From sequence record NC_028894.1: a stretch of 64,000 bases of DNA; one strand, given 5' to 3'. Below, piece after piece: positions 28,938 to 31,527 of the stretch; within the stretch, counting starts at the first letter, position 1; each line of letters begins with the position of its first letter. The DNA is from Escherichia phage vB_EcoM_VR20. Below the pieces are notes generated by a model. The model was not told where the DNA came from. It searched no databases and saw only the letters and a list, made by a program, of their open reading frames with translations. Both the position numbers and the translations under genes were made by a program.

Positions 28938-29228
28938 TCATTTGCAACGTTCCTCTTTTAGTTCAGAACGATAATAACATAACATACCTTTTTGGTCACG
29001 TACATATCTTTTTACATCATTCATCCAAATCCTGAATTCTTGCGATGCTTCAAAAGGCATACCAACCCAGGCTTGACCCTCAATTACCTTCACTTCCCAT
29101 TGCTGCTTATAATCAGCCAATGCAACAGGCCAATTAGGATGAACTTGGATTGTGGGCTCCACAACGGGCTTCTGGGCGCATGAAACGAGTCCAATAGCCA
29201 AACATACTGCCATGATAGATTTCATCAT
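28938..29228 (-). CDS. Outer-membrane spanin lipoprotein (T4 pseT.2-like)
   Basis: 96 aa; signal peptide with lipobox LVSC-A; start overlaps the end of the upstream membrane/coiled-coil ORF. Confidence 0.6.
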   Translation of the reverse strand: MMKSIMAVCLAIGLVSCAQKPVVEPTIQVHPNWPVALADYKQQWEVKVIEGQAWVGMPFEASQEFRIWMNDVKRYVRDQKGMLCYYRSELKEERCK

Positions 29229-29578
29229 TTGGTGAGCTCCTGGAAGTCCTGGGCGAACTTATCAAAAGACTGATTAATCTGTTTTTCAACTAATTTAGGC
29301 TTCGCTGCCACAACCTTAGTACGTTTTGCATCTGCGCGAAGTTTATCATTTTCCTTCTGCAGGTGTTCAACATATTCCTGGCGCTGTTGGTCAAGGAGAT
29401 TAATTTGATTAACCTGGTCTTTTATTGATTGCAGATTTTTCGCATTATCTTCTGCGACTTTGGTGACTTCCGCCACCGCTGTCTTGAGATTATCCACTTT
29501 TGCTTTTAGATAGAAACCACTACCAGCAGTTACTACCAGGGCGAGCATAAGCCCTGCGGTGAGATTACTTATTTGCAT
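29225..29578 (-). CDS. Inner-membrane spanin (T4 pseT.3-like)
   Basis: 117 aa; N-terminal transmembrane helix then coiled-coil periplasmic domain. Confidence 0.6.
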   Translation of the reverse strand: MQISNLTAGLMLALVVTAGSGFYLKAKVDNLKTAVAEVTKVAEDNAKNLQSIKDQVNQINLLDQQRQEYVEHLQKENDKLRADAKRTKVVAAKPKLVEKQINQSFDKFAQDFQELTK

Positions 29579-30072
29579 AACTTGATGATTACCTCAACAA
29601 TATCATCCTGGGATAAACCATTCAGGAGGATGTGATTTGTACTGTCAGATGCTGAAATGCGGAACTGATTACCAACTTCATCCGCCATATCATCCTGGGT
29701 TAATACTGGGTGTTTAATTCCCAGGCGGTGCTGAAGTGTCAGGGGTTCAACCACAACATAACAAACACATCCATTGATATGCACATTAGGTTGGGTCTGA
29801 TTGATGAACACTTCTGCATCATATTTAACCAAATGGTTCTTTAAGAAGTCAACCATTTCAGGAACAGATTCATGCAGCGCTTCTTTCCGCTCTTCTGATT
29901 TTTTATCACGATATTCTTTTTGTTTCGCCTTCAACTTTTTATTGGAGGCGAGTTTTTTCCGCAAGTCAGTCATGAGACCAATTTTCTTGGTCCCTTTATA
30001 GACATAAATTCCGTCATGACGGTCACCATATTCATTGACAATCATTTCATTTGAAATCAGTTGCATATCCAT
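29569..30072 (-). CDS. alc: Putative Alc, host transcription shutoff factor
   Basis: 167 aa from the internal ATG with GAGGAAAATATT Shine-Dalgarno, same length as T4 Alc; position between the spanins and rnlA. Confidence 0.55.
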   Translation of the reverse strand: MDMQLISNEMIVNEYGDRHDGIYVYKGTKKIGLMTDLRKKLASNKKLKAKQKEYRDKKSEERKEALHESVPEMVDFLKNHLVKYDAEVFINQTQPNVHINGCVCYVVVEPLTLQHRLGIKHPVLTQDDMADEVGNQFRISASDSTNHILLNGLSQDDIVEVIIKLCK

Positions 30073-30085
30073 AATATTTTCCTCA

Positions 30086-30319
30086 TTAGTAGCGGTTGTA
30101 ACCCCGGGGGCCAAAAGAGTTGGCACCCAGACGTTCATCTTTCTTTTTGGCTCTTGCTCTAAACCCAGAATCACCTGTTTGAGCTTTCAGTTCTTTTAAC
30201 AATTTGGCCTTCAGGTCAGTAATGAAACCAATCCGGCGGTCTCCCTTGTAGACATAGATTCCATCATTTCTGTCGCCATATGCCTTTGTAACTCTGTCAT
30301 TTGAAATTAAGTTTAACAT
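30086..30319 (-). CDS. Small protein paralogous to the Alc N-terminal domain
   Basis: 77 aa; ..LISNDRVTKAYGDRNDGIYVYKGDRRIGFITDLKAKL aligns with Alc residues 1 to 45; basic tail. Confidence 0.5.
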   Translation of the reverse strand: MLNLISNDRVTKAYGDRNDGIYVYKGDRRIGFITDLKAKLLKELKAQTGDSGFRARAKKKDERLGANSFGPRGYNRY

Positions 30320-30390
30320 GTTTTGGTCCTCATCAGTAGTTGATGGAACCATTATGTATAGAAAGAAGGGGCTTGTACACCCCTTTTTTA
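30320..30390 (-). promoter_or_regulatory. Terminator/promoter cassette downstream of rnlA
   Basis: Hairpin gggg-tgtacaag-cccc overlaps the -35; TGTACA-17-CATAAT; leader CATCAACTACTGATGAGGACC. Confidence 0.45.
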
Positions 30391-31527
30391 TTATTCAGGC
30401 AGGATTACATCCGCTTGGTAGTCCACCGGGATGTAAAGTTTATGATTTTTAAGGAAAACATTATTGATTTGAGCGATGGTTTGCTCTGTTTCCTGGGGAC
30501 GTTGATAGGTGTTCATTAATACGGAGAACAAACCCGGATATGGTTTACACAACTCTTGACCTTTAATCGCAAACTCGCGTCGGTCTTTTCCCGCCAACTG
30601 TTTCTGGGCATCAAGCAACAGTCCCAGGGTATTGGACAGATAATCCAGATGTGCAATGGTAAAGGCATTAACTTTTTCACGAGCATAATCATCGCCAGTA
30701 AACATGGCAATAACATCATCTGCACCGCCTGCAACAACAACTTCAAACAGACGCTGGTTATTGTTAACAGAATCCTTTGTATGGTGTAAAGCACAATACC
30801 ATTCTGTCTTAACTTTAAATTTGCGACCATCGACCAGCTCATAGACAAAGCCTTCAATCTCTTTCATATCACGGACGTTTTCAATTGTAGTCGGGTCATA
30901 TGCTTCAACCAGGAATGGACGAAGCGCGGCATCTTTAAACAAATCCTGATAAGGGATATATTCGCCAGTTTCATTATGGCGAACGTTCAGTAAAATCAGG
31001 TCACGTTCCTGGTAAGGCAAAACAATGCGGTTGGTTGGTGCAACATATTCCATATTGCATGTATAACCAGCTTCAGTAATTTCAGTTACACGCTCACGGA
31101 AAGCTATACGGTGTTCTTGTTTGAATACCTGCAGTGCTTCTGCTGCCTGGGAGCTTTTGATTGACCCTTTGGATTTAAAAGCAATATTGGTCTGGTCCAT
31201 ATAAGTGGAGACAAGAGAGCCATCAGCCTTGGTCATGACCAGCGCAACTTCATCCATATTGATATCCATGGTCAACGGATTTTCACCCAGATTAAAGAAT
31301 TTTTCCATAGGACGAGCAGCAATGCGAACTGGACCATCGTCATCCATTTCAAACATAATACCACGGCACTCCAGTGCGTCATCAAGAAGCCAATCACTAT
31401 AGGAAGCATAGTTATAGCTAAAGATGCGGAACTTAGTTTCAAATGGAGAAACAAAATCCGTATAGAAAAACTTACCTTTATCGGATTCGGCGCAAAGCTT
31501 CATTAAGTTATCATATAATTCAATCAT
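30391..31527 (-). CDS. rnlA: RNA ligase 1
   Basis: 378 aa (T4 374); RIFSYNYASYSDWLL, ECRGIMFE and KADGSLVSTY match recalled T4 Rnl1. Confidence 0.88.
   Translation of the reverse strand: MIELYDNLMKLCAESDKGKFFYTDFVSPFETKFRIFSYNYASYSDWLLDDALECRGIMFEMDDDGPVRIAARPMEKFFNLGENPLTMDINMDEVALVMTKADGSLVSTYMDQTNIAFKSKGSIKSSQAAEALQVFKQEHRIAFRERVTEITEAGYTCNMEYVAPTNRIVLPYQERDLILLNVRHNETGEYIPYQDLFKDAALRPFLVEAYDPTTIENVRDMKEIEGFVYELVDGRKFKVKTEWYCALHHTKDSVNNNQRLFEVVVAGGADDVIAMFTGDDYAREKVNAFTIAHLDYLSNTLGLLLDAQKQLAGKDRREFAIKGQELCKPYPGLFSVLMNTYQRPQETEQTIAQINNVFLKNHKLYIPVDYQADVILPE

What the first reader, a model, noticed from the sequence alone, without database searches (positions are those of the whole stretch)
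29569..30319. Alc N-terminal domain duplicated as a separate 77-aa gene
The small ORF directly upstream of the putative alc shares about half its residues with Alc residues 1 to 45 (LISN...YGDR.DGIYVYKG...IG..TDL.KKL), then diverges into a basic tail. It has its own Shine-Dalgarno and promoter cassette. A free-standing copy of this domain could modulate or mimic Alc.
Basis: partly seen in the sequence, partly recalled or inferred. Interest (0 to 1): 0.5.

Follow-up and report, generated by a model that had tools for sequence, protein, structure and literature searches.

The report
Short Alc paralogue upstream of alc
A T4-like phage carries, just ahead of its host-transcription shut-off gene alc, a small conserved gene made from the first third of alc plus a new tail; databases already list this gene, its function is unknown, and it is a modest lead rather than a surprise.

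Summary
On the minus strand lie rnlA (30391..31527), a 77-aa ORF (30086..30319), alc (29569..30072) and pseT.3.

- **alc:** it is a true Alc (Pfam ALC E 6.5e-49; 57% identical to T4 Alc).
- **Small ORF:** it matches Alc residues 3-62 (50% identity, E 3e-17). Profile comparison limits the homology to residues 2-50.
- **Real gene:** it is intact in all 14 relatives fetched (dN/dS 0.12). Four lineages that are saturated at synonymous sites all keep it.
- **Structure:** the model gives Alc's N-terminal helix-hairpin-helix module, then a disordered basic tail. The tail carries an invariant R..N.FGP...N motif that Alc lacks.
- **Expression signals:** the gene has its own Shine-Dalgarno. The promoter-like site upstream sits where T4's lies in front of alc. 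It most likely serves both genes, because the small ORF's stop abuts alc's ribosome site.
- **Not new:** SP18 "alcb" (2010), VR7ORF243c and PHROG 17715 already record it. I found no functional study.
- **Distribution:** it occurs in Gaprivervirus and three metagenomic sister lineages only.
- **Function (inferred):** an early accessory factor that docks where Alc's N-module docks, probably on host RNA polymerase.

Gaprivervirus reportedly lacks hydroxymethylcytosine synthesis, which makes its Alc system worth testing.

The parts
30391..31527 (-). rnlA (RNA ligase 1), the upstream neighbour
   Evidence: 378-aa ORF. Annotated as rnlA in VR7, SP18 and T4 at the syntenic position.
30366..30385 (-). 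G+C-rich hairpin AAGGGGTGTACAAGCCCCTT followed by CTTTCT; terminator-like, directly after rnlA
   Evidence: Terminator scan. Nearly invariant in 15 Gaprivervirus loci. Function inferred.
30351..30379 (-). Promoter-like site TGTACA-17 nt-CATAAT; the -35 hexamer lies in the hairpin loop
   Evidence: Scan, 9/12 match. Same position as TTTACA-17-TATAGT in front of T4 alc. GTTTAC-type sites precede the small ORF in L016 and L018 and precede alc in L019 and L022. Activity not tested.
30327..30331 (-). Shine-Dalgarno GAGGA of the small ORF, 7 nt before the ATG
   Evidence: Read from the sequence. Conserved in 14 of 15 loci; L013 has GCGGA.
30086..30319 (-). Small Alc paralogue (77 aa; equals SP18 alcb, VR7ORF243c, phrog_17715)
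   Evidence: ORF. phrog_17715 E 4.7e-54 over 77/77 positions. Intact in 14 of 14 relatives, dN/dS 0.12.
30170..30316 (-). Codons 2-50: the part homologous to Alc residues 3-51 (helix, beta-hairpin, start of the long helix)
   Evidence: hhalign E 1.5e-23. AF2 gives H7-14, E22-25, E28-32, H33-48, with pLDDT above 90 for residues 11-40.
30095..30133 (-). Codons 63-75: conserved tail motif R-x-G-x-N-S/T-F-G-P-x-G-x-N in a tail predicted to be disordered
   Evidence: R63, N67, F69, G70, P71 and N75 are invariant in 4 lineages about 45-50% identical. No nonsynonymous differences in codons 64-77 against pS 0.28 within the genus. pLDDT about 50. No counterpart in Alc.
30080..30084 (-). Shine-Dalgarno GAGGA of alc, 1 nt after the small ORF's TAA stop (30086..30088)
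   Evidence: Read from the sequence. The stop overlaps the SD (TGAGGA) in VR7, L016 and L018. Translational coupling is inferred.
29569..30072 (-). alc (167 aa), inhibitor of host transcription
   Evidence: Pfam ALC E 6.5e-49. 57% identical to T4 Alc, E 2e-70. AF2 pLDDT 92: N-module 1-33, helix 34-80, alpha/beta domain 87-166.
29225..29578 (-). pseT.3 (Rz-like i-spanin), overlaps the end of alc by 10 nt
   Evidence: ORF. Annotation in VR7 and T4.

Best explanation
Shown: the 77-aa ORF is a real protein-coding gene under purifying selection, and it is a truncated paralogue of alc.

Inferred origin: it most likely arose by an old partial tandem duplication. The duplicated piece ran from the alc leader and ribosome-binding site to about codon 50-60.

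Build: it keeps Alc's N-terminal module (short helix, beta-hairpin, first four turns of the long helix) and lacks Alc's C-terminal alpha/beta domain. It has gained a disordered basic tail with a conserved R-x-G-x-N-S/T-F-G-P-x-G-x-N-(K/R)-(F/Y) peptide at the C-terminus.

Expression (inferred from sequence signals): it is transcribed with alc from the early-type promoter that precedes alc alone in T4. It is translated from its own strong SD, and its stop codon touches alc's SD.

Mechanism (inferred, not shown): the shared N-module docks on the same partner as Alc's N-module, most probably host RNA polymerase near the beta-subunit site defined by paf mutations. The new tail makes a second contact with protein or nucleic acid. 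The small protein would then act early in infection as an accessory to, or competitor of, Alc that tunes host-transcription shut-off.
For: Homology and its limits.

It is a real gene:
- It is intact in 14 of 14 fetched Gaprivervirus loci.
- 17 of 25 segregating sites are at codon position 3.
- dN/dS is 0.12 overall, 0.05 for codons 46-77, and shows no nonsynonymous change in codons 64-77.
- Arg72 is kept through a CGG to AGA codon switch.
- Three metagenomic lineages, whose Alc is 75-77% identical where known, keep a 77-78-aa Pfam-ALC gene after rnlA; where the contig continues (L016-L018) alc follows it. Synonymous sites between lineages are saturated.

Duplication including the leader:
- The two ATGs are 247 nt apart.
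- 20 of 30 nt upstream of the two ATGs are identical, including CTACTNATGAGGA.
- Only 1 of 2000 shuffles reaches the 74-nt alignment score.
- A similar leader resemblance, AACAAGT..GAGG, is seen in L016 and L018.

Fold: same secondary structure as Alc residues 1-48, with a disordered tail.

Operon: the promoter-like site lies only upstream of the small ORF, at the position of the T4 alc promoter, and the stop abuts the SD.

RNA polymerase as Alc's partner: paf mutations at beta R368 and P372 are cited as a possible Alc-binding determinant (PMC2939025).

Against: - No result here shows what Alc's N-module binds, and no domain mapping of Alc was found in the searchable literature.
- The N-module has no structural analogue outside the Alc family that could hint at its function.
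- Alc N-terminal haplotypes and small-ORF variants do not co-vary among the 15 genomes, so there is no co-evolution signal.
- Expression is inferred from sequence signals only.
Confidence: 0.45

Rival explanations
1. Alc-binding microprotein. The shared N-module (plus the start of the long helix) is Alc's self-association surface. The small protein would form mixed complexes with Alc and so titrate or redirect it, as a dominant-negative or adaptor subunit, rather than binding RNA polymerase itself.
For: Alc has a 47-residue helix (34-80) of the kind often found in oligomers. The small protein keeps the N-module and helix 33-48. The two genes are made from one operon with adjacent or overlapping stop and SD, which favours fixed stoichiometry.
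Against: Only about a third of the long helix is kept. The oligomeric state of Alc is unknown to me, and nothing on it was found in the papers searched. There is no co-variation between Alc N-terminal haplotypes A/B and the small-ORF variants. The conserved tail is not explained.
Confidence: 0.2
2. Neo-functionalised small basic protein whose role is no longer connected with Alc. For example, it could be a nucleic-acid-binding or other host-takeover factor that merely re-uses the N-module as a scaffold.
For: pI is about 10 in all four lineages, against 6.65 for Alc. The tail motif has no counterpart in Alc. The N-module is as distant from its own Alc (53%) as from T4 Alc (51-55%).
Against: The gene holds a fixed position immediately upstream of alc in every locus where the downstream sequence is available. 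It shares alc's promoter-like site, and its stop abuts alc's SD. The conserved positions of the N-module are largely the same in both families.
Confidence: 0.2
3. Translational leader. The ORF would matter mainly because its translation delivers ribosomes to, or opens, the alc start (translational coupling). The peptide itself would be of little importance.
For: The stop codon lies 1 nt before, or overlaps, alc's SD in all lineages.
Against: There is strong selection on the amino-acid sequence: dN/dS 0.05 in the tail and a synonymous CGG/AGA Arg switch. Motif residues stay invariant across saturated divergence. alc has a good SD of its own. Phages without the ORF express alc directly.
Confidence: 0.1
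4. Decaying remnant of a duplication, or an annotation artefact, with no function.
For: It is short and restricted to one clade. One metagenome variant (P0002) is frameshifted in the tail.
Against: It is intact in 14 of 14 isolates and in three other lineages. dN/dS is 0.12, variation is biased to the third codon position, and it has a strong SD.
Confidence: 0.03

Closest known systems
T4 Alc (gene alc/unf; Pfam PF17527, phrog_1253)
   Same: Residues 2-50 are homologous to Alc 3-51, with the same predicted helix-hairpin-helix module. Same locus, strand and promoter-like site. The downstream 167-aa gene is the true orthologue (57% identical to T4 Alc).
   Different: It lacks two thirds of Alc: most of the long helix and the whole C-terminal alpha/beta domain. 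It has a basic disordered tail with a motif absent from Alc. pI is 10.1 against 6.65. Termination activity on dC-DNA cannot be assumed.
Shigella phage SP18 'alcb' (ADO19581), VR7ORF243c (YP_004063924), PHROG phrog_17715
   Same: The same gene: 95-99% identical, same length, same position between rnlA and alc. The SP18 note already reads 'similar to N-terminal region of bacteriophage JS98 Alc'.
   Different: Nothing of substance. Those records give only a similarity-based name ('inhibitor of host transcription'), and I found no experimental work.
MicroProteins: truncated single-module paralogues that titrate a larger relative or its partner (a general concept, from my own knowledge)
   Same: It is derived from a larger protein, keeps one module, and is co-expressed with the parent.
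   Different: The retained module's binding partner is unknown. The added conserved tail suggests a gain of function rather than simple titration.
Small T4 early proteins that bind host RNA polymerase (AsiA, RpbA, Mrh, Srh; from my own knowledge and the VR7 annotation)
   Same: Small early proteins of the host-takeover programme. RNA polymerase is a plausible target.
   Different: No sequence or fold relationship was found. Binding is untested.

Membership tests
Alc (PF17527 / phrog_1253), for ORF 29569..30072 | Full-length sequence match to the about 167-aa family | tested here: met
   Pfam ALC matches residues 1-166 to profile 1-176 of 177, E 6.5e-49. phrog_1253 E 1.6e-73. 57% identical to T4 Alc, E 2e-70.
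Alc (PF17527 / phrog_1253), for ORF 29569..30072 | Synteny rnlA - alc - pseT.3 - pseT.2 | tested here: met
Alc (PF17527 / phrog_1253), for ORF 29569..30072 | Terminates host RNA polymerase on dC-DNA but not on modified DNA; blocked by rpoB paf mutations | not testable with these tools
   Biochemical and genetic property (Kashlev 1993 and Severinov 1994, as cited in PMC2939025).
Alc, for the small ORF 30086..30319 | Full-length architecture: N-module, long helix and C-terminal alpha/beta domain | tested here: not met
   Only profile positions 3-62 of 177 match. hhalign covers residues 2-50 only. The model has no C-terminal domain. It is a domain-level relative of Alc, not an Alc.
Alc, for the small ORF 30086..30319 | Significant homology to the Alc N-terminal region | tested here: met
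   E 3e-17 against its own Alc, 8e-18 against T4 Alc, Pfam 37.5 bits against a 25-bit cut-off.
phrog_17715 / 'AlcB' short paralogue | End-to-end match to the 77-position family profile | tested here: met
   E 4.7e-54, residues 1-77 of 77. 95-99% identical to SP18 alcb and VR7ORF243c.
phrog_17715 / 'AlcB' short paralogue | Location between rnlA and alc, same strand | tested here: met
   Window, 14 Gaprivervirus loci, L016-L018.
phrog_17715 / 'AlcB' short paralogue | Conserved C-terminal R..G.N(S/T)FGP.G.N motif (defined here) | tested here: met
Dominant-negative / microprotein regulator of a parent protein | Derived from, and co-expressed with, a larger paralogue | tested here: met
   Homology. 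Shared promoter-like site and abutting stop and SD. Co-expression is inferred from the signals.
Dominant-negative / microprotein regulator of a parent protein | Physically binds the parent or the parent's partner and alters its activity | not testable with these tools
   No multimer prediction was available and no experimental data were found.

The most novel reading that the evidence does not exclude
The short paralogue is an Alc-derived factor with a newly evolved C-terminal docking peptide. It would adapt Alc-type transcription shut-off to a phage clade that has lost the hydroxymethylcytosine pathway. Gaprivervirus lacks gene 42 and both glucosyltransferase genes, yet keeps Alc, DenB and dCTPase. 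One possibility is that the paralogue protects phage transcription from Alc. Another is that it retargets RNA polymerase on DNA whose modification is still unidentified.
Probability: 0.12. Interest if true: 0.6.

Novelty: already known. Interest (0 to 1): 0.3.

Why it matters
How Alc recognises RNA polymerase and tells cytosine from modified cytosine has never been resolved at domain level, and no structure is deposited. A natural free-standing copy of Alc's N-terminal module is a ready-made reagent for asking what that module binds.

The clade that carries it reportedly lacks any known pathway for modified cytosine while keeping dC-directed weapons (PMC8056088). Its Alc system may therefore work differently from T4's.

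The practical value is modest: a defined gene, a defined motif and clear experiments. It is not a new kind of system.

Tried and rejected
- **Programmed frameshift fusing the small ORF to alc.** The alc frame is open for 37-38 codons upstream in Gaprivervirus and in L016/L017, but for only 7 codons in L018, and it varies non-synonymously. Rejected.
- **The 88-aa start at 30352.** It is closed by an in-frame TAA in 5 of 15 genomes. Rejected.
- **Tail homologous to Alc's FINQTQPNV strand.** MAFFT suggested this in A4, but hhalign does not support it and the last tail codons align with the alc leader. Treated as an alignment artefact.
- **Gene conversion between the paralogues as the source of Alc's two N-terminal haplotypes.** Both haplotypes are equally distant (53%) from the small ORF. 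Not supported.
- **Tail motif elsewhere.** It occurs nowhere else in the window. In 50,697 phage records, tblastn with the tail alone finds only the same gene plus chance matches.
- **NCBIfam and Rfam.** Nothing relevant.
- **Long repetitive proteins** in the representative search (P0029, P0031, P0032, P0034 and P0035 were scanned with Pfam; P0036 was not). The scanned ones are compositional junk that hits many unrelated Pfam families.
- **IMG/VR scan.** It returned only VR25 and VR26 themselves.
- **Literature on Alc domains or on the short gene.** Nothing found. Drivdahl & Kutter 1990 is not held.

Full report
**What is there**

The minus strand of the window carries these genes in order:
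- rnlA (30391..31527)
- a 77-aa ORF (30086..30319)
- a 167-aa ORF (29569..30072)
- pseT.3 (29225..29578)
- pseT.2 (28938..29228)

This is the T4 order rnlA-alc-pseT.3-pseT.2 with one extra small gene. The 2.4-kb region is 95% identical to phages TH15 and VR7. It matches 38 phage records, 32 of them over at least 80% of its length, and every record I fetched is classified as Gaprivervirus (Tevenvirinae).

**Is the downstream ORF Alc?**

Yes.
- Pfam ALC matches end to end (E 6.5e-49), and phrog_1253 gives 1.6e-73.
- It is 57% identical to T4 Alc over 166 residues (E 2e-70).

**Is the similarity real?**

Yes.
- The small ORF aligns with residues 3-62 of its neighbour at 50% identity (E 3e-17).
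- It aligns with T4 Alc at 51% identity (E 8e-18).
- It passes Pfam ALC's curated threshold on the N-terminal third of the profile.
- A profile-profile comparison of the small-ORF family with 21 Alc proteins confines the homology to small 2-50 and Alc 3-51 (probability 99.6%, E 1.5e-23). The rest of the small protein has no counterpart in Alc.

**Is it a gene?**

Within the genus:
- All 14 Gaprivervirus loci I fetched have the ORF intact at 234 nt.
- Across the 15 sequences (the window plus these 14), 17 of 25 variable sites are third codon positions.
- Nei-Gojobori dN/dS is 0.12 overall. It is 0.32 for codons 1-45 and 0.05 for codons 46-77.
- Codons 64-77 show no amino-acid change, although synonymous diversity there is 0.28.
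- These values compare with 0.10 for alc and 0.07 for rnlA.
- Arg72 is kept through a CGG/AGA codon switch.
- An alternative 88-aa start at 30352 is closed by an in-frame TAA in five relatives. The ATG at 30319, preceded by GAGGA at a 7-nt spacing, is therefore the start.

Beyond the genus:
- Metagenomic contigs whose Alc is 75-77% identical carry a 77-78-aa Pfam-ALC gene in the same place (L016, L017, L018).
- A further short contig (L025) ends just after such a gene.
- Contigs whose Alc is 60-63% identical do not carry it (L019-L023).
- The four small-ORF lineages are about 45-57% identical to each other, and synonymous sites between them are saturated (pS 0.54-0.93).

Census:
- A profile search of 5.8 billion proteins found five clusters. 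One of them is a frameshifted variant.
- An exhaustive phmmer search of 1.84 billion representatives added none.
- Among 50,697 phage records, only 32 Gaprivervirus records have a full-length copy.

**Anatomy**

The AlphaFold model of the window's Alc (pLDDT 92) shows three parts:
- a small N-terminal module: helix 8-15 and beta-hairpin 23-33
- one 47-residue helix (34-80)
- an alpha/beta domain (87-166)

The small protein's model repeats the first part: helix 7-14, hairpin 22-32 and helix 33-48, with pLDDT above 90 for residues 11-40. Its residues 49-77 are predicted to be disordered.

That tail is basic (pI 10.5). It holds residues that are invariant in all four lineages: R63, N67, F69, G70, P71 and N75. 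The consensus is R-x-G-x-N-S/T-F-G-P-x-G-x-N-(K/R)-(F/Y)-end. A conserved peptide inside a disordered tail looks like a docking motif, but this is inference. I found the motif nowhere else in the window or in phage records.

**Origin**

- The two start codons are 247 nt apart.
- The 30 nt before each ATG share 20 identities, including CTACTNATGAGGA.
- Only 1 of 2000 shuffles reaches the score of the 74-nt leader alignment.
- L016 and L018 show a comparable leader resemblance.

The simplest reading is a partial tandem duplication running from the alc leader to about codon 50-60. The upstream copy would then read into the duplicated leader, which now encodes its last residues and its stop codon.

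The N-module of the small protein is as far from its own Alc (53%) as from T4 Alc (51-55%). The event is therefore old. Acquisition of the fragment from another phage cannot be excluded.

**Expression signals**

- A hairpin (30385..30366) follows rnlA. Its loop holds the -35 hexamer of a promoter-like site, TGTACA-17-CATAAT (30379..30351). Both are nearly invariant in the genus.
- T4 has TTTACA-17-TATAGT at the same place, directly before alc.
- L016 and L018 have GTTTAC-type sites before the small ORF. L019 and L022 have them before alc.
- No promoter-like site, late-promoter box or MotA box separates the small ORF from alc.
- The small ORF's stop lies 1 nt before alc's GAGGA in the window. 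It overlaps the SD in VR7, L016 and L018.

The two genes thus look like one early operon with possible translational coupling. None of this has been tested by transcript data.

**Mechanism**

The literature I could read gives these points:
- Alc associates with E. coli RNA polymerase.
- Alc terminates transcription on cytosine DNA.
- The paf mutations at beta R368 and P372 may mark its binding site (PMC2939025).

On that hint, the N-module and helix would be the docking part. The small protein would then occupy the same site and add a tail contact, tuning or competing with Alc.

The rivals are set out in the rival explanations:
- It binds Alc itself.
- It has an unrelated new role.
- It serves mainly as a coupling leader.
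- It is a dead remnant.

The last two fit the conservation data poorly.

**Novelty**

The gene is already in the databases:
- VR7ORF243c
- its own PHROG, phrog_17715

I found no paper that discusses it. What this analysis adds is:
- the evidence for selection
- the wider distribution in metagenomic sister lineages
- the limits of the homology
- the tail motif
- the operon reading

**Context worth noting**

- VR7 has no gene 42, beta-gt or alpha-gt at the T4 positions.
- T4 gp42 finds nothing in the window or in VR7 14-94 kb.
- Two papers state that Gaprivervirus lacks known enzymes for modified bases while keeping Alc, DenA, DenB and dCTPase (PMC8056088; PMC12115623).

Whether the short paralogue is linked to this cannot be tested on the short metagenomic contigs available.

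Noticed in passing
L024 (VR7 14000-44000), L027 (VR7 44001-94000); whole window: Gaprivervirus VR7 has no gene 42 (dCMP hydroxymethylase), beta-gt or alpha-gt at the T4 positions: uvsX is followed by VR7ORF049c, 42.1 and imm, and gene 47 is followed by a-gt.2 to a-gt.5 and gene 55. T4 gp42 gives no tblastn hit (best E 0.62) in the window or in VR7 14-94 kb. The genus still keeps Alc, DenA, DenB and gp56 dCTPase, so its DNA modification status is an open question (also stated in PMC8056088). VR7 1-14 kb and 94-107 kb were not searched.
   Followed up: partly
window 29905..30072 (alc codons 1-56), extending into 30086..30180: Among the 15 Gaprivervirus sequences, all Alc amino-acid variation but one lies in residues 1-56. 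It forms two haplotypes (MDMQ..NEYGD..GTKKIGLM and MNMQ..DVYGD..GSKNVGFL). Synonymous diversity is 0.34 there against 0.07 in codons 57-167. This is a small mosaic segment that recombines independently of the small-ORF variants.
   Followed up: partly
[not shown]
   Followed up: no
window 30351..30385, minus strand: The terminator-like hairpin after rnlA and the promoter-like site for the next operon overlap: the -35 hexamer TGTACA forms the hairpin loop. The arrangement is nearly invariant in the 15 Gaprivervirus sequences compared.
   Followed up: no
window 29569..30174 and 30086..30352; L007, L008; P0003, P0004: Public gene calls disagree on the starts. alc is called as 188-201 aa from upstream starts that overlap the small ORF (CJ20; P0003 and P0004). 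The small ORF is called as 88 aa in phage RZ. Homology to T4, the SD positions and an in-frame stop in relatives favour 167 aa and 77 aa.
   Followed up: yes
P0002 (ENA metagenome contig, 75 aa): This is a variant of the small ORF. Its reading frame shifts after residue 55 and runs across the alc start, which removes the conserved tail. It may be a natural deletion or an assembly error.
   Followed up: no
P0033; BFVD A0A3S7GSC5 (Escherichia phage vB_EcoM-G28, 63 aa): A T4-type Alc is cut short after about residue 48 by a frameshift in a Tequatrovirus record. It is a broken alc, or a sequencing error, and not a member of the short-paralogue family.
   Followed up: no
L027 21136-21561 (VR7ORF147c); L024 10374-10877 (VR7ORF049c): VR7 carries a cytidine/deoxycytidylate-deaminase-like ORF. 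It also has a 167-aa ORF of unknown function exactly where T4 has beta-gt and gene 42. Both are candidates to examine for this genus's nucleotide metabolism.
   Followed up: no
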